From the NCBI GenBank assembly GCA_964588685.1, contig CAZPQG010000005.1, positions 5,916-69,915 on the forward strand: a stretch of 64,000 nucleotides of DNA, written 5' to 3'. This document shows positions 14,942 through 38,849 of the stretch, one piece after another. The position numbers were made by a program, and so were the translations under genes. This DNA comes from an uncultured Pseudomonadales bacterium. Lineage in GTDB: Bacteria > Patescibacteriota > Microgenomatia > UBA1400 > PJMF01. The stretch's first letter is position 1; each line of letters opens with the position of its first letter. The notes below the pieces were generated by a model, which was not told the origin of the DNA, ran no database searches, and was given only the letters and a program-made list of their open reading frames with translations.

Positions 14942-15247
14942 TTGATGGCGCAGGCAAAATACAAACAATATTATCAAAAAATGATGGCAGAGAATGAGGC
15001 CTTGTTTGCCCGTTTTCGCCAAGTACATGAGCAGTATCGACAGAATAAAGCTAAACATCAACCTGAGTTTGATAAGATTGGCCAAAAGGTGACGACCTTA
15101 ATTCGTGATTGGGATAAAAGACTCTGTTCAGCCATGGGCAAAACCCGCTATGCTCATTATTCGCATGCGGTGTCAGAAAAGTTTTGGAATTTAGTTAGGG
15201 AAGAATTTGATCAAATTGATATGGTTGGTGTTAAAATTGAACAGTAA
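14942..15247 (+). CDS. Hypothetical protein, 101 aa.
   Basis: ORF only; I recognised no motif. Confidence 0.3.
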   Translation: MMAQAKYKQYYQKMMAENEALFARFRQVHEQYRQNKAKHQPEFDKIGQKVTTLIRDWDKRLCSAMGKTRYAHYSHAVSEKFWNLVREEFDQIDMVGVKIEQ

Positions 15248-16944: not shown

Positions 16945-17769
16945 TCAAATCACCACCAAGTCTGCTTTAATATGCGGGTGAGATTCATAATTTACCAGCT
17001 TAAAATCATTAATCGTAAAGTCGTCAATATCTTTCACTTCAGGATTAACCCACAATAGGGGCCTTTTTTTTGGCTTTCTGTGAATTTGCTCCTCGGCTTG
17101 CCGTAAATGATTTTTATATAGATGCAAGTCGCCGATCGTATGCACAAACTCGCGCGCTTCCAAGCCTGTTACTTGAGCCACCATCAACAGTAATAGTGAA
17201 TATTGACTTATATTAAAGGGTAGACCTAAAAAAGCGTCAGCGCTGCGTTGATACAACTGCAAGCGTAATTTACCCTTAGTGACGTTGAATTGAAAAAAAG
17301 TGTGACACGGAGGCAGCCTCATTTCGTCAAGTTGAGCCGGATTCCAAGCTGAAACCAGCATAGCTTTGGAATAAGGCTGGGTTTTTATTTCTTGGATAAC
17401 ATTTTTAAGCTGATCAATATGGCCGCCCTCATAATCAGGCCATTTTCGCCATTGATAGCCGTAAACCGGTCCCAGCTCACCATCTTCTTCAGCAAAATCA
17501 TCCCAATAGTGAATTTTTTTCTCTTGCAGCGGTTTTATATTAGTGCTGCCTGATACAAACCATAATAGTTCATTGGTCATGGTCTTAAAAGGCATTTTTT
17601 TTGTGGTTAGAATGGGAAAACCACGCCGGAAGTCAAAACGCATTTGATAGCCAAAAGTGCTTTTGATGTCGTGTACACCGCGAGTTTTTTTACTTTTGCC
17701 GTTTTCCAAAATGTGTTTGAGGGCTTGTAGGTATTGCTGCATGGTGTTTAGTATAGCATTGTCAAACAA
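16945..17769 (-). CDS. thyA: Thymidylate synthase ThyA. The start is probably the internal Met, MQQYLQAL..., near 17742.
   Basis: RMLPPCHTFFQF active-site Cys. SAWNPAQLDEM and DLHLYKNH conserved blocks. Confidence 0.9.
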   Translation of the reverse strand: MFDNAILNTMQQYLQALKHILENGKSKKTRGVHDIKSTFGYQMRFDFRRGFPILTTKKMPFKTMTNELLWFVSGSTNIKPLQEKKIHYWDDFAEEDGELGPVYGYQWRKWPDYEGGHIDQLKNVIQEIKTQPYSKAMLVSAWNPAQLDEMRLPPCHTFFQFNVTKGKLRLQLYQRSADAFLGLPFNISQYSLLLLMVAQVTGLEAREFVHTIGDLHLYKNHLRQAEEQIHRKPKKRPLLWVNPEVKDIDDFTINDFKLVNYESHPHIKADLVVI

Positions 17770-17888
17770 AGAATAAAACTGAGTTTAGAACTAAATAATT
17801 GTTTAAAAAAGAATGTTGATAAGCGATTTTTTTGCCGCTTGACCGTTATAGATTATGGGTATATATTCATAATTAGTATTAACTAATT

Positions 17889-18218
17889 ATGACAAAGGAG
17901 GCAAATATGCCAGCATTAGATCAAACAGGACCAAGAGGTCAGGGGCCAATGACCGGTCGCGGCTTAGGTGCTTGCAATGATGGCCCGGGTTTAGGTATGG
18001 GGCGAGGAAGAGGCTATGGACAGGGTTTCGGACGAGGTTTAGCTAGAGGTTGGGGTAGAGGTTACCCTTGTTATTTGATAGGGCGTCATTTTTTTGCGCC
18101 GGAAAATCAAATAGCTATGCTAGAGCAGCAAAAAGCTATGATGGTAGAAGAAAAAGAGATGCTTGAGCGGGAGATTACAGCTGTAGACGAAGAAATTGAA
18201 GCTTTGCAAGAAGAATAA
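17889..18218 (+). CDS. DUF5320-like small protein: a Gly/Arg-rich N-terminus followed by a coiled-coil.
   Basis: MPALDQTGPRGQGPMTGRGLGAC... then GRGRGYGQGFGRG, and a C-terminal heptad-repeat segment. The DUF5320 assignment comes from remembered family features. Confidence 0.5.
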   Translation: MTKEANMPALDQTGPRGQGPMTGRGLGACNDGPGLGMGRGRGYGQGFGRGLARGWGRGYPCYLIGRHFFAPENQIAMLEQQKAMMVEEKEMLEREITAVDEEIEALQEE

Positions 18219-18261
18219 TATTTTATGTGCTGTAGTCAGTTCAATTTTTAGCTGATTGTGT

Positions 18262-18310
18262 AAAAACAGCCTGTGTTTATGCTAGAATAATTTTAAACCA
18301 GGCTGTTTTT
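18262..18310 (+). terminator. Candidate long-loop hairpin/terminator after the DUF5320 gene.
   Basis: AAAAACAGCCTG...(25 nt)...CAGGCTGTTTTT has 12-bp perfect arms and ends in a T-run. Confidence 0.35.
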
Positions 18311-18398
18311 GTGATTAGGTTACTTTTGGAAGCGTTAATCACAAAGGGCTGCCGATGAATTATACTGCTGTTAGTTTTTTAAATTTAATAATCACACT

Positions 18399-18680
18399 AT
18401 GCCGAGACCTAAACTTTGTAAAAGAATTAGATTTGATCCTGAAGTATGCTATTTTAAACCTAAAGGGGTTCCTTTACGCGAATTGCAAGTGGTAGAGTTA
18501 TCTTTAGAAGAAGTTGAAGCTCTACGCTTAAAAAACATTAAAAATTTGTCACAAATAGAATGTGCTCAAAAAATGAACACTTCTCAGAGCACTGTGCAAA
18601 GAATTTTAAGCTCTGCTTATCAAAAAGTTTCACAAGCTTTAATTGAGGGCCAAGCCATTCGCATCAGTCAATCAGAGTAA
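18399..18680 (+). CDS. DUF134/UPF0251 family putative DNA-binding protein.
   Basis: MPRPKLCKRIRFDPEVCYFKPKGVPLRELQVVELSLEEVEALRL, plus a sigma-70 region-4-like HTH (QKMNTSQSTVQRIL). Confidence 0.6.
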   Translation: MPRPKLCKRIRFDPEVCYFKPKGVPLRELQVVELSLEEVEALRLKNIKNLSQIECAQKMNTSQSTVQRILSSAYQKVSQALIEGQAIRISQSE

Positions 18681-18801: not shown

Positions 18802-19776
18802 TTAATTTATTTTCTTTACGGTAATGCCTGCCTGCTCCAGCATTTTTTTACCGTAACCGGCTGAGTGGTCATGCTGATAAACTACTGCCTGCAAATTAGT
18901 TCTAGCTAGCATCCGAGCGCAATTAGGGCAGGGCAGCAGATTAATGTATAGGCAGGCGCTGTCCAACTTCACTCCCCGGCGCAAGGCTTTAAGCACGAGT
19001 TCAACTTCAGCATGATTGGTGTCGCAATATTGCAAATCTTGAGGAGGTGTTAAATGTTTTTCCTTGCTTGCGCCCTGATGAAGCATGTAAGTTTCATAAG
19101 GCACAACTTGATTATGGGCTGACAGTACAAAACGCTGTTTTTTAGCTAGTACCGCTGCAGTTTGAAAAGTATAGTCAAAAGAGAGTCGGCTTTCTAGTGT
19201 TGCCAGCTGCATCAGTTCTGATTCAGCATATTGCTGTTTGCGGGCAGGTTCAATGGCCGGCATATTTTTTTTAATTTGTTCTAAATAGCTTAAGGCTTCA
19301 GTCTTATCCACAAATGAGCTGACTAATTTATAAGGAAGCTGTCTCTTTTTTAATTGGCGAAATTCTGCGCGGTAATGAAAAGCTCGATGCCAAGAGCCGT
19401 TAATACCGATTACAGCGGCCCAATTGCCTTGTTGAATAAGGCGTGGCGCTTCAGCTTGAGGGTAGAGTAGAGTCTTAATTTGTTCGCCGTCGCTGTGTTT
19501 AATTTTGCCGCTCCTGTATTTCAGTTGCTTTAGAGCTGAAGTTAATGGCGCTAGACTTAAGGCCTTAAAAGGCAACGAGTTTTCTAAGCCGGCAATATAT
19601 TCTTCTTCAATACAACCCCAAATTAATTTTTTATCAGTATTGCTTAATAATTGGCGTGACAGCTGCCTGATACGTTCTCCTGAAATTTCTCGGGGGCCTA
19701 GAATTAAAATTGGCTGCTCTGTGGTCAGCTGTTTTAAGTCTTGAGGAGTGAGATCAGACCAAGAGTAGTGATTCAT
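18802..19776 (-). CDS. Fusion protein: an N-terminal domain of about 220 aa of unknown function, plus a C-terminal dCMP/cytidine deaminase zinc-binding domain.
   Basis: The C-terminus carries HAEVELVL...PCPNCARML, the CDA-fold HAE...PCxxC motif. The N-terminal 220 aa have no recognisable motif. Confidence 0.6.
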   Translation of the reverse strand: MNHYSWSDLTPQDLKQLTTEQPILILGPREISGERIRQLSRQLLSNTDKKLIWGCIEEEYIAGLENSLPFKALSLAPLTSALKQLKYRSGKIKHSDGEQIKTLLYPQAEAPRLIQQGNWAAVIGINGSWHRAFHYRAEFRQLKKRQLPYKLVSSFVDKTEALSYLEQIKKNMPAIEPARKQQYAESELMQLATLESRLSFDYTFQTAAVLAKKQRFVLSAHNQVVPYETYMLHQGASKEKHLTPPQDLQYCDTNHAEVELVLKALRRGVKLDSACLYINLLPCPNCARMLARTNLQAVVYQHDHSAGYGKKMLEQAGITVKKIN

Positions 19777-37986: not shown

Positions 37987-38267
37987 ATGAGCTTGCTTTA
38001 GCTTTTTGCTTTAAATGATTTGGTTAAGGTTATTGGCTTATTTATCGCGGGCAGCGGTGTTTAAAGGATGCCAATAAAGTTGTTATTTTTTTTAGCCGCT
38101 ACCACTATATTTTTTTGCTTATTTATTAATCGTTTTAACTATTGTAATATATATAATCAAAATGAAAGCAGTTAGGGTAGTAATGCAGCGGTTTAAATAA
38201 GAAAATAATAAGAAATGAAATAAAGTGGATTAGAAGATGTTTTTTATCAATTAATCATCTAAAAGCA

Positions 38268-38849
38268 ATGAAAAATAAAAATATTTTAATCATAGTAGGT
38301 TTAGCTGCTGTAGCAGTGATAGGTTTAGTCCTTTTTAATCGTTATGAAGCTCAAGATTTAGTACTGGAAGAGGATCGAGAGCAGGAAGCATTGATGGAAG
38401 AGCAGAATGAAGCAGAGGAACCGGCTGATTTGGAATTTACCATCAAGCAGCCTGAAGATGAAACTGAAGAAGCAGCAGGAGACACTGAAGAACTAACAGC
38501 ACCGGAAACTGAAGAACCCGGTGAAGAATTAGACGAAGCTGCTGCGGATGAAGCGGTATTAAGCACTACCAGCGAAGAGAAGGAAGTTTACACCTTTTTC
38601 TACGGCGACACTTGTCCATATTGTCATGATGTCATTGATTGGTTTGAAGAAACCGGCATTGAGTCAACTCTGAATATTGTGAGAAAAGAAACTTACAATG
38701 ATCTAGCTAACAGCGAGCAATTAAAGTTAGCGGCAGAAACTTGCGGCGAGAAAGGCACCGGTGTACCATTCCTATTTACTCCTGACAAAGAATGTATTAT
38801 TGGTTCTAATATGATTATTGATTATTTATCTGAAGAAGCCGGGCTGTAA
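38268..38849 (+). CDS. Membrane-anchored acidic protein with a C-terminal glutaredoxin-like CPYC thioredoxin-fold domain.
   Basis: N-terminal TM segment, an E/D-rich linker, then FYGDTCPYCHDVIDWFEE with the CPYC active-site motif. Confidence 0.45.
   Translation: MKNKNILIIVGLAAVAVIGLVLFNRYEAQDLVLEEDREQEALMEEQNEAEEPADLEFTIKQPEDETEEAAGDTEELTAPETEEPGEELDEAAADEAVLSTTSEEKEVYTFFYGDTCPYCHDVIDWFEETGIESTLNIVRKETYNDLANSEQLKLAAETCGEKGTGVPFLFTPDKECIIGSNMIIDYLSEEAGL

What the first reader, a model, noticed from the sequence alone, without database searches (positions are those of the whole stretch)
17889..18680. Adjacent DUF5320-like (Gly/Arg-rich plus coiled-coil) and DUF134 (HTH) genes between thyA and the deaminase gene
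The 109-aa protein (MPALDQTGPRGQGPMTGRGLGAC..GRGRGYGQGFGRG.., then a heptad coiled-coil) and the 93-aa protein (MPRPKLCKRIRFDPEVCYFKPKG..., HTH) are both small and of unknown function. They sit side by side, with a hairpin between them. Both families are widespread but functionally uncharacterised. From memory, their co-occurrence is recurrent, which suggests a two-component regulatory unit.
Basis: partly seen in the sequence, partly recalled or inferred. Interest (0 to 1): 0.5.

Follow-up and report, generated by a model that had tools for sequence, protein, structure and literature searches.

The report
Self-regulated DUF5320–DUF134 two-gene operon
Two small genes of unknown function in a Patescibacteria genome form a widely conserved operon that carries a nearly invariant 20-bp palindrome on its own promoter, so the helix-turn-helix protein most likely represses the operon, which in relatives also holds metal-transport and iron-sulfur genes.

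Summary
Window 17907-18218 (+) encodes a DUF5320 protein and 18399-18680 (+) a DUF134 protein, both well above Pfam cut-offs, with a hairpin between them.

The pairing is not chance. In 80 Patescibacteria species loci anchored on DUF134, 76 have DUF5320 upstream on the same strand, and the other four are cut or limited by contig ends.

I also found a 20-bp palindrome, TTATGGGTATATAYTCATAA, that overlaps the -10 of the operon promoter (window 17853-17872). It is present in every locus that could be assessed. In a DNA-only metagenome scan, 111 of 114 usable matches sit in front of DUF5320 and/or DUF134. Related palindromes precede the same cluster in Verrucomicrobia, Spirochaetes, Marinimicrobia and an archaeon.

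DUF134 models as a free-standing sigma-70 region-4-like HTH. I infer that it is a dimeric autorepressor. DUF5320 has a conserved Cys-containing N-motif, a disordered Gly/Arg region and a coiled coil. It is the first and probably major product.

In relatives the operon also carries CDF, ZIP, NifX-like and MinD-like 4Fe-4S ATPase genes, as in orange-protein clusters. This window lacks them.

"Regulatory unit" is only partly supported, because direct DUF5320-DUF134 contact is untested. Interest is moderate.

The parts
17839..17844 (+). -35 hexamer TTGACC of the operon promoter
   Evidence: Promoter scan gives TTGACC, a 17-nt spacer and TATATT, 10 of 12 matches. TTGACA sits at the same distance from the palindrome in nearly all related loci.
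17853..17872 (.). 20-bp palindrome TTATGGGTATATATTCATAA overlapping the -10; candidate operator for DUF134
   Evidence: It is the only match in the 64-kb window. It occurs upstream of DUF5320 in 72 of 76 genome loci, plus L063; the other 3 are at contig edges. In the metagenome scan 111 of 114 usable exact matches precede DUF5320 and/or DUF134. Related palindromes occur in other phyla and in an archaeon.
17862..17867 (+). -10 hexamer TATATT, inside the palindrome
17869..17890 (+). Leader inverted repeat ATAATTAGT-atta-ACTAATTAT. It overlaps the right arm of the palindrome and ends in a third TTATG half-site.
   Evidence: Read directly from the sequence. Most relatives have at this position a covarying hairpin with an AAAGGTCG motif. 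The window lacks that motif.
17895..17901 (+). Shine-Dalgarno AAGGAGG for the 17907 start
17907..18218 (+). DUF5320 gene (103 aa; the mechanical ORF starts at 17889). It has the N-terminal motif MPxxDxTGPxGxGPMTGRGxGxC, a Gly/Arg-rich disordered region and a C-terminal coiled-coil helix.
   Evidence: PF17253, 78.8 bits. G8, G13, T16, G17 and G21 are invariant, and C23 is present in 114 of 118 sequences. In the AF2 model residues 1-66 have low pLDDT and helix 67-102 has pLDDT of about 90.
18262..18310 (+). Intergenic hairpin with A-tract and U-tract flanks, resembling a terminator or attenuator
   Evidence: -18.7 kcal/mol. A strong hairpin lies at the equivalent place in 103 of 110 related intergenic regions, with median -29 kcal/mol and z -5.8. 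Base pairs covary in relatives.
18311..18342 (+). Second intergenic inverted repeat GTGATTA..TAATCAC
   Evidence: Sequence and MFE fold. Its conservation was not assessed.
18399..18680 (+). DUF134 gene (93 aa). It has a basic N-terminal arm, a three-helix sigma-70 region-4-like HTH and a small three-stranded sheet.

Best explanation
The two genes form one operon, read from a near-consensus sigma-70 promoter. The -10 hexamer of that promoter lies inside a 20-bp palindrome. DUF134 is a free-standing sigma-region-4-type HTH protein. I infer that it binds this palindrome as a dimer and blocks RNA polymerase, so the operon represses itself.

DUF5320 is always the first gene and probably the major product. 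It is a coiled-coil (probably dimeric) protein with a cationic, disordered Gly/Arg region and a conserved N-terminal motif with one Cys. I infer that it works with metal or metal-sulfur species. The hairpin between the genes probably lowers read-through, or processes or stabilises the transcript, so that less regulator than DUF5320 is made.

In relatives the same promoter-to-DUF134 frame encloses CDF and ZIP transporters, NifX-like proteins, MinD-like 4Fe-4S ATPases, ferritin-like proteins and peroxiredoxin. The unit is therefore the minimal core of a metal, Fe-S and redox homeostasis operon.

Shown here: family membership, gene order, the operator's conservation and specificity, the HTH fold, and the hairpin's conservation. 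Inferred: that DUF134 binds the palindrome, that the effect is repression, the signal, and the role of DUF5320.
For: - Gene order. DUF5320 then DUF134 on the same strand in 76 of 80 Patescibacteria loci, and 62 of these are adjacent. The misses are contig-end cases or long operons cut by the contig.
- Operator conservation. TTGACA-N11-TTATGRRTATATAYTCATAA is conserved while the flanks are unrelated. The palindrome is found in all 73 loci that can be assessed. It occurs once in the 64-kb window.
- Second copy. In 1.0 Mb of related loci the only other good copy heads the peroxiredoxin-HAD-ZIP-rhodanese operon directly upstream of the pair, in L055 and L056.
- DNA-only test. Of 114 usable exact 20-mer matches in metagenomes, 101 are followed by DUF5320 and 6 directly by DUF134. 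Four more are followed by another gene and then DUF134 or DUF5320. Three are unlinked. The site therefore tracks DUF134 even where DUF5320 is missing.
- Wider reach. The same or related TTATG-N10-CATAA palindromes sit at cluster promoters in a Verrucomicrobia MAG (upstream of DUF134), an archaeon, Limihaloglobus, Oceanispirochaeta, a Marinimicrobia MAG and others.
- Fold. DUF134 models as a sigma-4-like HTH.
- Precedent. The sigma-4-type HTH protein EnfR is a dimeric repressor of a pseudo-palindrome and uses its N-terminal residues in DNA binding (PMC10570040).
- Inserted genes. CDF, Nitro_FeMo-Co, CbiA plus Fer4, ZIP, EncFtn-like and YibE_F genes lie between or beside the pair, and 34 of 80 loci have at least one such family within 6 kb.
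- Hairpin. 103 of 110 intergenic regions have one. 94.8% of cells are paired, with 59 double changes against 15.5 in shuffles (0 of 500). The AAGAAGG..CCTTCTT form occurs only at this position in 1.0 Mb.
Against: - No binding experiment exists. The assignment of the palindrome to DUF134 rests on co-occurrence.
- The palindrome contains the -10, and its centre is TATATA, so part of its conservation is simply promoter conservation.
- L208 and L211 have palindromes but no DUF134 within 6 kb.
- Neither protein has an evident ligand-binding domain. Cys7 of DUF134 is present in 99 of 116 Patescibacteria sequences but absent in other phyla.
- The window has no metal-related gene of the recurrent families within 64 kb, apart from one weak thioredoxin-membrane hit at 38184-38846. 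The metal link is therefore by analogy with relatives.
- The U-tract of the conserved hairpin lies mostly inside the stem, so it is not a textbook terminator. The scan tool did not call the window's hairpin a terminator.
Confidence: 0.55

Rival explanations
1. DUF5320 is a direct protein partner of DUF134, acting as co-repressor, anti-repressor or sensor, by analogy with small anti-sigma factors that clamp sigma region 4. Its conserved Cys motif would bind a metal or Fe-S cluster and switch DNA binding by DUF134. This is compatible with the best explanation and would extend it.
For: - The pairing and gene order are nearly obligatory in Patescibacteria.
- In other phyla DUF134 carries RG-rich tails, or RG-rich plus Zn-ribbon tails, so the HTH and an RG-rich segment occur in one chain.
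- Many of the closest structural matches are sigma-4 domains crystallised with small anti-sigma partners.
- DUF5320 Cys23 is present in 114 of 118 sequences.
- The EnfR authors also propose an antirepressor for a sigma-4-type repressor that lacks an effector domain.
Against: - DUF5320 occurs without a nearby DUF134 in 3 of 8 loci outside Patescibacteria.
- DUF134 follows the operator without DUF5320 in at least 6 metagenome loci.
- No fusion of the DUF5320 N-motif with DUF134 was seen.
- DUF134 is far more conserved than DUF5320 (65-78% against about 40-50% identity), which does not suggest tight co-evolution.
Confidence: 0.25
2. DUF5320 is a nucleic-acid-binding protein with a basic RG-rich region followed by a coiled coil, like a bZIP or RGG protein. 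It would act on the conserved leader motif or the intergenic RNA hairpin. Control of the operon would then be partly post-transcriptional, for example attenuation or antitermination at the hairpin.
For: - The two-stem RNA hairpin is conserved, specific to this locus and covaries, and it has a purine-rich internal loop.
- The leader motif AAGGTCG is present in 66 of 101 loci against 24 of 535 background windows.
- DUF5320 and DUF134 of M. mazei were flagged as carrying an RG-type quadruplex-binding motif (PMC7565180).
- The AF2 model shows a disordered cationic region and then a long helix.
Against: - The window lacks both the AAGGTCG motif and the AAGAAGG-type hairpin, yet keeps both genes and the palindrome.
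- There are no RNA-binding data.
- Outside Patescibacteria DUF5320 sits among metalloprotein genes.
Confidence: 0.1
3. The palindrome is the site of a different regulator, for example a Fur-, PerR- or Zur-type metalloregulator. DUF134 would then be a regulated product with another role, such as a sigma-4 mimic that contacts RNA polymerase.
For: - The AT-rich palindrome loosely resembles metalloregulator boxes (from my own knowledge; not tested).
- The neighbouring genes are typical of Fur, Zur and PerR regulons.
- DUF134 is conserved to an unusual degree for a repressor.
Against: - The site is linked to DUF134 or DUF5320 in 111 of 114 usable metagenome matches.
- Apart from the L055 and L056 operon next to the pair, it was not found in front of other genes in 1.0 Mb of flanking DNA.
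- It follows the cluster across phyla and into an archaeon.
Confidence: 0.08
4. The adjacency is a coincidence of two small, compositionally odd ORFs.
For: None.
Against: Both score far above the Pfam cut-offs. The order and strand are conserved in 76 of 80 loci.
Confidence: 0.01

Closest known systems
Orange-protein (ORP) gene cluster of anaerobes (Desulfovibrio vulgaris orp3-4-5 and orp7-8-9; PMC6345978, PMC8359166)
   Same: In related loci DUF5320 and DUF134 lie in one cluster with the ORP core families. These are the Nitro_FeMo-Co (orange-protein family), two MinD-like ATPases with 4Fe-4S motifs (Orp3/Orp4-like), and in L083 a Mrp plus NifX-like fusion (Orp9/MrpORP-like).
   Different: In D. 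vulgaris the cluster is driven by sigma-54 and the Fe-S redox sensor OrpR. Here the regulator is a sigma-70 promoter with a palindrome and DUF134. The window has none of the ORP core genes in 64 kb. My lead that Orp5 might be DUF5320 is not supported: its G20 homologue Dde_3197 is reported as similar to Nitro_FeMo-Co proteins, and no Desulfovibrio hit came back.
EnfR/Tfx family (TON_1525, PDB 8HNO; PMC10570040)
   Different: [quoted passage not shown] DUF134 instead has a small three-stranded sheet made from its N- and C-termini. There is no significant sequence match.
ECF sigma factor region 4 with small anti-sigma factors (e.g. SigL4-RslA 3HUG, SigD4-RsdA 3VEP, SigW-RsiW 5WUQ)
   Same: These are the best fold matches to the DUF134 HTH. 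They show the pattern of a sigma-4 domain encoded next to a small partner gene.
   Different: DUF134 lacks sigma regions 2 and 3, so it cannot be a sigma factor. Its conserved DNA site is a palindrome over the -10, not a -35 element. DUF5320 shows no similarity to any anti-sigma factor.
IssA of Pyrococcus furiosus (thioferrate storage protein; PMC5524996)
   Same: IssA has a disordered cationic tail rich in Gly, Arg and aromatic residues, with a single Cys. The tail is proposed to wrap anionic iron-sulfur polymer and is attached to a NifX-like (IPR003731) domain. DUF5320 has a comparable Gly/Arg/aromatic region with one conserved Cys and is encoded next to NifX-like genes.
   Different: DUF5320 has no IPR003731 domain. 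It has a sharply conserved N-terminal motif and a coiled coil that IssA lacks. The resemblance is compositional only and was not tested.
Bacillus subtilis DeoR / SorC-family N-terminal HTH (PDB 7BHY)
   Same: It is the only PDB sequence match to the DUF134 profile (E 0.035, 38% identity over about 40 residues). It is an operator-binding repressor domain.
   Different: DeoR has a large sugar-phosphate-binding effector domain. The match covers the HTH only and is not significant.

Membership tests
Pfam PF17253 (DUF5320) | Score above the Pfam gathering cut-off over the whole profile | tested here: met
   78.8 bits against 27; profile positions 1-99 of 99.
Pfam PF17253 (DUF5320) | N-terminal motif MPxxDxTGPxGxGPMTGRGxGxC, then a Gly/Arg-rich region, then a C-terminal helix | tested here: met
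   The window protein has MPALDQTGPRGQGPMTGRGLGAC. All invariant columns (G8, G13, T16, G17, G21) and C23 are present. Helix 67-102 is modelled.
Pfam PF02001 (DUF134 / UPF0251) | Score above the Pfam gathering cut-off | tested here: met
   70.4 bits against 27. NCBIfam PRK04217 scores 57.6 against 115, below its cut-off.
Pfam PF02001 (DUF134 / UPF0251) | Basic N-terminal arm with the ..FKPxG.P motif, followed by an HTH | tested here: met
   The protein starts MPRPKLCKRIRFDPEVCYFKPKGVP. The HTH helices are 36-47, 52-58 and 63-83.
Sigma-70 family sigma factor | Region 4 HTH | tested here: inconclusive
Sigma-70 family sigma factor | Region 2 (-10 recognition and core binding) | tested here: not met
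   The protein is 93 aa and has no region 2 or 3. It is not a sigma factor.
ORP (orange protein) cluster | A Nitro_FeMo-Co (ORP) gene plus two MinD-like ATPase genes with 4Fe-4S motifs in the same locus | tested here: not met
   HMMs built from relatives find none in the 64-kb window. The feature is met in related loci L023, L024, L063, L079, L083-L085 and L209-L211.
Autoregulated repressor operon | Palindromic site overlapping the core promoter of the regulator's own operon, conserved across relatives | tested here: met
Autoregulated repressor operon | The regulator binds the site and lowers transcription | not testable with these tools
   This needs EMSA or footprinting and a reporter assay.
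Intrinsic terminator | GC-rich stem-loop directly followed by a U-tract | tested here: inconclusive
   The window hairpin at 18262-18310 ends in TTTTT, but those bases pair with the 5' A-tract and the loop is long. The scan did not call it. In relatives the U-rich CCUUCUUU is part of stem P1.
Rfam families (any) | Covariance-model match to the leader or the intergenic hairpin | tested here: not met
   There are only weak chance-level hits in the window (best E 0.48). Only tRNAs reach gathering score in 8 related loci.
Tfx/EnfR family | C-terminal Tfx 'note-head' domain | tested here: not met
   There is no such Pfam hit. The model shows only the HTH plus a small sheet.
Anti-phage defence or phage families | Match to PADLOC or PHROGs families other than a generic HTH | tested here: not met
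   DUF5320 has no hits. DUF134 matches only sigma-factor or regulator HTH families.

The most novel reading that the evidence does not exclude
DUF134 is an ancient regulator whose TTATG-N10-CATAA operator has been kept from Patescibacteria and Verrucomicrobia to DPANN-like archaea. It controls an ORP-type metal-sulfur and metal-transport regulon. DUF5320 is its sensor partner: a coiled-coil dimer whose conserved Cys motif and cationic Gly/Arg region bind an Fe-S cluster or iron-sulfur polymer and report iron, sulfide or redox status to the repressor. In reduced Patescibacteria genomes this pair would be the main metal-homeostasis switch. The locus-specific RNA hairpin and the AAAGGUCG leader motif would be new cis-regulatory RNA elements.
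Probability: 0.2. Interest if true: 0.75.

Novelty: new variant of a known kind. Interest (0 to 1): 0.55.

Why it matters
Both families are widespread in anaerobic bacteria and archaea, yet the searchable literature holds no functional study of either. This work turns "two adjacent DUFs" into a concrete model that can be tested cheaply: one protein, one 20-bp DNA site, one promoter.

If confirmed, three things would follow.
- DUF134 would get a function, as the repressor of the orange-protein-type Fe-S and metal cluster outside Desulfovibrio.
- It would be one of the few transcription factor and operator pairs known in Patescibacteria.
- It would give a handle on how these reduced organisms control iron, zinc and redox homeostasis.

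The locus-specific, covarying RNA hairpin and the leader motif are not in Rfam. They may be new cis-regulatory RNAs.

Tried and rejected
- Literature. Searches for DUF5320, DUF134, UPF0251, COG1342, PF02001 and PF17253 gave no functional paper. The UPF0251 hit in the T. saccharolyticum Rex paper is only a transposon insertion in a table.
- Orp5 lead. I suspected that Orp5/DVU2105 of the ORP complex is DUF5320. A protein search from a Desulfobacterota-like DUF5320 returned no Desulfovibrio entry. The Fievet 2011 and Maiti 2016 papers are not held. The G20 homologue Dde_3197 is described as similar to Nitro_FeMo-Co proteins. I dropped the lead.
- Solved structures. No homologue exists for either protein by sequence.
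- DUF5320 fold search. The model has mean pLDDT 60 with a disordered N-terminal two-thirds, so I did not run a fold search on it.
- Recognition-helix rule. I looked for a link between an SQ or SR recognition helix and the inner triplets of the operator. L189 and L200 have SR helices with the GGG-type operator, so there is no clean rule.
- Second site upstream of DUF134. A TTATCAYA motif is present in only 15 of 110 intergenic regions, so it is a subclade feature.
- Cys7 as sensor residue. Cys7 of DUF134 is absent outside Patescibacteria.
- Defence or phage origin. No support.
- Generic terminator. The AAGAAGG..CCTTCTT hairpin occurs only at this locus in 1.0 Mb, so it is not a general terminator type in these genomes.
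Full report
**1. What is in the window**

Two same-strand ORFs lie between a divergent thyA (16945-17769, -) and a convergent deaminase-domain gene (18802-19776, -).
- The first ORF (17889-18218) is a full-length DUF5320: PF17253, 78.8 bits against a cut-off of 27.
- The second (18399-18680) is DUF134: PF02001, 70.4 bits against a cut-off of 27. It also has sub-threshold sigma-70 region-4 hits.
- The real start of the first gene is most likely ATG 17907, giving 103 aa. AAGGAGG lies at 17895-17901, the Pfam match begins at residue 7, and every relative starts MPxxD.
- The same contig exists in public assemblies, where the gene is called as either 109 or 103 aa.
- The organism is a member of Patescibacteria.

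**2. Is the pairing more than chance?**

I anchored on DUF134 only and scanned one genome per species. The scan found 427 encoding loci, and 80 were kept, all Patescibacteria.
- HMMs built from the homologues found DUF5320 upstream on the same strand in 76 of the 80.
- Two of the four misses have DUF134 at the contig edge. The other two (L052, L053) are long operons cut by the contig start.
- 62 pairs are directly adjacent, with a median gap of 84.5 nt. 14 have 0.8-5.9 kb of inserted genes.
- Outside Patescibacteria I examined eight distinct DUF5320 loci. DUF134 lies within 6 kb in five: Limihaloglobus, Oceanispirochaeta, an unassigned metagenome contig (L085), an archaeon, and a Verrucomicrobia MAG. 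A NifX-like Nitro_FeMo-Co gene is present in all eight. MinD-like ATPases with 4Fe-4S motifs are present in six.

**3. A conserved operator-like palindrome**

Aligning the DNA upstream of DUF5320 showed a block conserved in otherwise unrelated flanks: cTTGACA-N11-TTATG(G/A)(G/A)TATATA(C/T)TCATAA. TTATGAATATATATTCATAA is a perfect 20-bp palindrome.
- In the window the block is TTGACC (17839-17844), a 17-nt spacer and TATATT (17862-17867). The palindrome at 17853-17872 covers the -10.
- It is present within 350 nt upstream of DUF5320 in 72 of 76 loci. L063 has it 367 nt upstream, in front of an inserted ferritin-like gene. The last three loci are at contig edges.
- It occurs once in the 64-kb window.
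- In 1.0 Mb of related loci the only other good copy heads a peroxiredoxin-HAD-ZIP-rhodanese operon lying just upstream of the pair, in L055 and L056.

As a test that does not depend on the proteins, I scanned the metagenome collection for the exact 20-mer. It returned 120 loci, of which 114 have at least 150 nt downstream.
- 101 are followed within 400 nt by DUF5320.
- 6 are followed directly by DUF134.
- 4 are followed by another gene and then DUF134 or DUF5320. The intervening genes are an SDR, a NifX-like gene, an EncFtn-like gene, and an RG-rich plus Zn-ribbon variant.
- 3 are unlinked.

The site is not confined to Patescibacteria.
- The unassigned contig L085 has the exact site upstream of DUF5320, and a Verrucomicrobia MAG has a one-mismatch copy upstream of DUF134.
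- An archaeon with Gins51, S3Ae and L44e neighbours has a one-mismatch copy upstream of DUF5320.
- Limihaloglobus, Oceanispirochaeta, a Marinimicrobia MAG (two tandem copies) and L211 have variants. These keep the outer TTATG...CATAA but change the inner triplets (AAC/GTT or CAC/GTG).

**4. The proteins**

*DUF134.* It is 65-78% identical across Patescibacteria, with 30 of 93 positions invariant, including the whole recognition helix TSQST(F)QRIL. The AF2 model (pLDDT 83.7) has a three-helix HTH and a small sheet formed from the N- and C-terminal strands.
- EnfR is a useful precedent. It is a stand-alone sigma-4-type HTH, a dimeric repressor of a pseudo-palindrome, and its N-terminal residues contact DNA (PMC10570040).
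- DUF134 lacks sigma regions 2 and 3, so it is not a sigma factor.

*DUF5320.* It has an almost invariant N-terminal motif: G8, G13, T16, G17 and G21 are invariant, and C23 is present in 114 of 118 sequences. It also has a Gly/Arg-rich segment and a C-terminal helix.
- In the AF2 model residues 1-66 are disordered and helix 67-102 is confident.
- Some family members carry two copies of the N-motif.
- In other phyla DUF134 proteins carry RG-rich tails or RG-rich plus Zn-ribbon tails. The same Zn-ribbon type appears as a 70-aa protein after DUF5320 in L057 and as the C-terminal tail of a CDF transporter in L079.
- Neither protein has a solved homologue by sequence.

**5. What the operon contains in relatives**

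The genes inserted between DUF5320 and DUF134 are of these families:
- CDF cation efflux (12 loci; it abuts the DUF134 start codon)
- Nitro_FeMo-Co (11 loci)
- CbiA/ParA plus Fer4 ATPases (6 loci)
- split ArsP_1-like permeases
- thioredoxin-fold membrane proteins
- peroxiredoxin
- EncFtn-like ferritin

ZIP, YibE/F and FeoAB genes lie beside the pair. In all, 34 of 80 loci have at least one of these families within 6 kb.

The NifX-like plus two Fer4-ATPases (plus a Mrp-NifX fusion in L083) is the core of the orange-protein (ORP) cluster of anaerobes. In Desulfovibrio vulgaris that cluster is controlled by sigma-54 and the Fe-S redox sensor OrpR (PMC6345978, PMC8359166). L210 shows that arrangement, with a sigma-54 activator and no DUF134. 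In D. alaskensis the ORP-type genes Dde_3197-3199 change in expression together with feoA and flavodoxin (PMC10533852).

The window has none of these families within 64 kb, apart from one weak thioredoxin-membrane hit. It holds the minimal form of the operon.

**6. The hairpin**

Its position is conserved.
- Of 110 distinct intergenic regions, 103 fold at -15 kcal/mol or lower within 80 nt. The median is -29.1 kcal/mol and the median z is -5.8.
- In 98 of them the hairpin starts within 6 nt of the stop codon.
- In about 40% of loci it takes a specific two-stem form: P1 AAGAAGGY/RCCUUCUU, a purine-rich asymmetric internal loop, and a GC-rich P2.
- On 40 sequences, 94.8% of cells pair, and 10 of 13 pairs show compensatory changes. 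There are 59 double-change cells against 15.5 in shuffles (0 of 500). G-U pairs are frequent, which points to the sense-strand RNA.
- This pattern occurs nowhere else in 1.0 Mb of the same loci and matches no Rfam family.
- Its U-rich 3' side lies inside P1, so it is not a textbook terminator.

I read it as an attenuator or a processing or stability element that sets the DUF5320 to DUF134 ratio. That is inference. The window's hairpin has a different sequence; among the window's closest relatives, L005 carries a similar one.

**7. How it most likely works**

*Shown:* the operon structure; a promoter with an embedded palindrome that is conserved and specific; the sigma-4-type HTH fold; the conserved intergenic RNA structure; and the metal, Fe-S and redox gene content in relatives.

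*Inferred:*
- DUF134 binds the palindrome as a dimer and occludes the -10, which gives autorepression.
- A metal, Fe-S or redox signal relieves or strengthens this repression.
- DUF5320 is either the main regulated product or the sensor partner of DUF134. As a product, it could be a cationic coiled-coil protein that handles metal-sulfur species, compositionally like the IssA tail (PMC5524996).

My confidence is about 0.55 for the autorepressor model and about 0.25 for a direct DUF5320-DUF134 partnership. The two are not exclusive.

**8. Novelty and verdict**

The two genes are ordinary members of two known but uncharacterised Pfam families, in their standard arrangement. The new findings are:
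- the operator, which reaches across phyla and into archaea;
- the link to ORP-type and metal-transport genes as one transcription unit framed by DUF5320 and DUF134;
- the locus-specific RNA elements.

I rate it a new variant of a known kind, namely an autoregulated HTH repressor operon. Interest is moderate, because it makes the function of two widespread DUFs directly testable.

Noticed in passing
Related loci L004-L079 and L088-L207, between the palindrome and the DUF5320 start; absent from the window: The leader motif AAGGTCG (usually AAAGGTCG) is present in 66 of 101 metagenome loci against 24 of 535 random 50-nt windows. It often sits on the 3' side of the loop of a short hairpin whose stem covaries (GATAGTC/GACTATC, TAGGTAAT/ATTACCTA, GAGGG/CCCTC). 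In L063 it occurs twice. There is no Rfam match and its function is unknown.
   Followed up: partly
Related loci, DUF5320-DUF134 intergenic region (e.g. L015:9908-9960, L050:9915-9962): A two-stem RNA hairpin (AAGAAGGY..RCCUUCUU, with a purine-rich internal loop) covaries and occurs only at this position in 1.0 Mb. It is not in Rfam and may be a new cis-regulatory RNA.
   Followed up: yes
L055:6031-6050 and L056:7021-7040: A second copy of the operator-like palindrome (TAATGGGTATATACTTATAA) heads a peroxiredoxin-HAD-ZIP-rhodanese operon directly upstream of the DUF5320-DUF134 pair. This hints at a small regulon.
   Followed up: partly
L057:9165-9377; L079:8950-9999 (C-terminal ~60 aa); L086:6429-6851; L189 (first ORF after the palindrome): A recurring module of an RG-rich segment plus a Zn-ribbon (C-x-C-x2-C ... 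PHQRG(I/Q)PC ... CPxCG) appears in four settings: as a free 70-aa protein, as the tail of a CDF transporter, as the tail of an archaeal DUF134, and fused behind a DUF5320-like N-motif.
   Followed up: partly
Proteins P0026, P0034, P0253: Some DUF5320 proteins carry two tandem copies of the N-terminal motif MPxxDGTGPxGxGPxTGRGxGxC, so the motif behaves as an independent module.
   Followed up: no
L208:5700-5790 (Marinimicrobia MAG): Two tandem copies of the palindrome variant TTATGAACTATAGTTCAT(T/A)A lie at a TTGAC promoter. They sit in front of a short DUF5320-like ORF (63 aa, no coiled coil) and then a full DUF5320. No DUF134 lies within 6 kb.
   Followed up: no
window 18802-19776 (-): The 324-aa deaminase-domain protein has its dCMP/cytidine deaminase domain only in residues 185-300. 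The N-terminal ~180 residues have no Pfam match. It lies next to thyA, a HIT-family gene and a cytidylyltransferase-like gene, so the DUF pair sits inside a nucleotide-metabolism neighbourhood. A dCMP-deaminase-like gene also follows DUF134 on the same strand in 6 related loci.
   Followed up: no
window 17869-17890: The perfect inverted repeat ATAATTAGT-atta-ACTAATTAT overlaps the right arm of the palindrome and ends in another TTATG. The window therefore has three TTATG/CATAA half-sites in a row: TTATG-N10-CATAA-N14-TTATG.
   Followed up: no
window 14942-15247 (+): A 101-aa ORF has no Pfam match. It is also called as a gene in the public assembly of the same contig.
   Followed up: no
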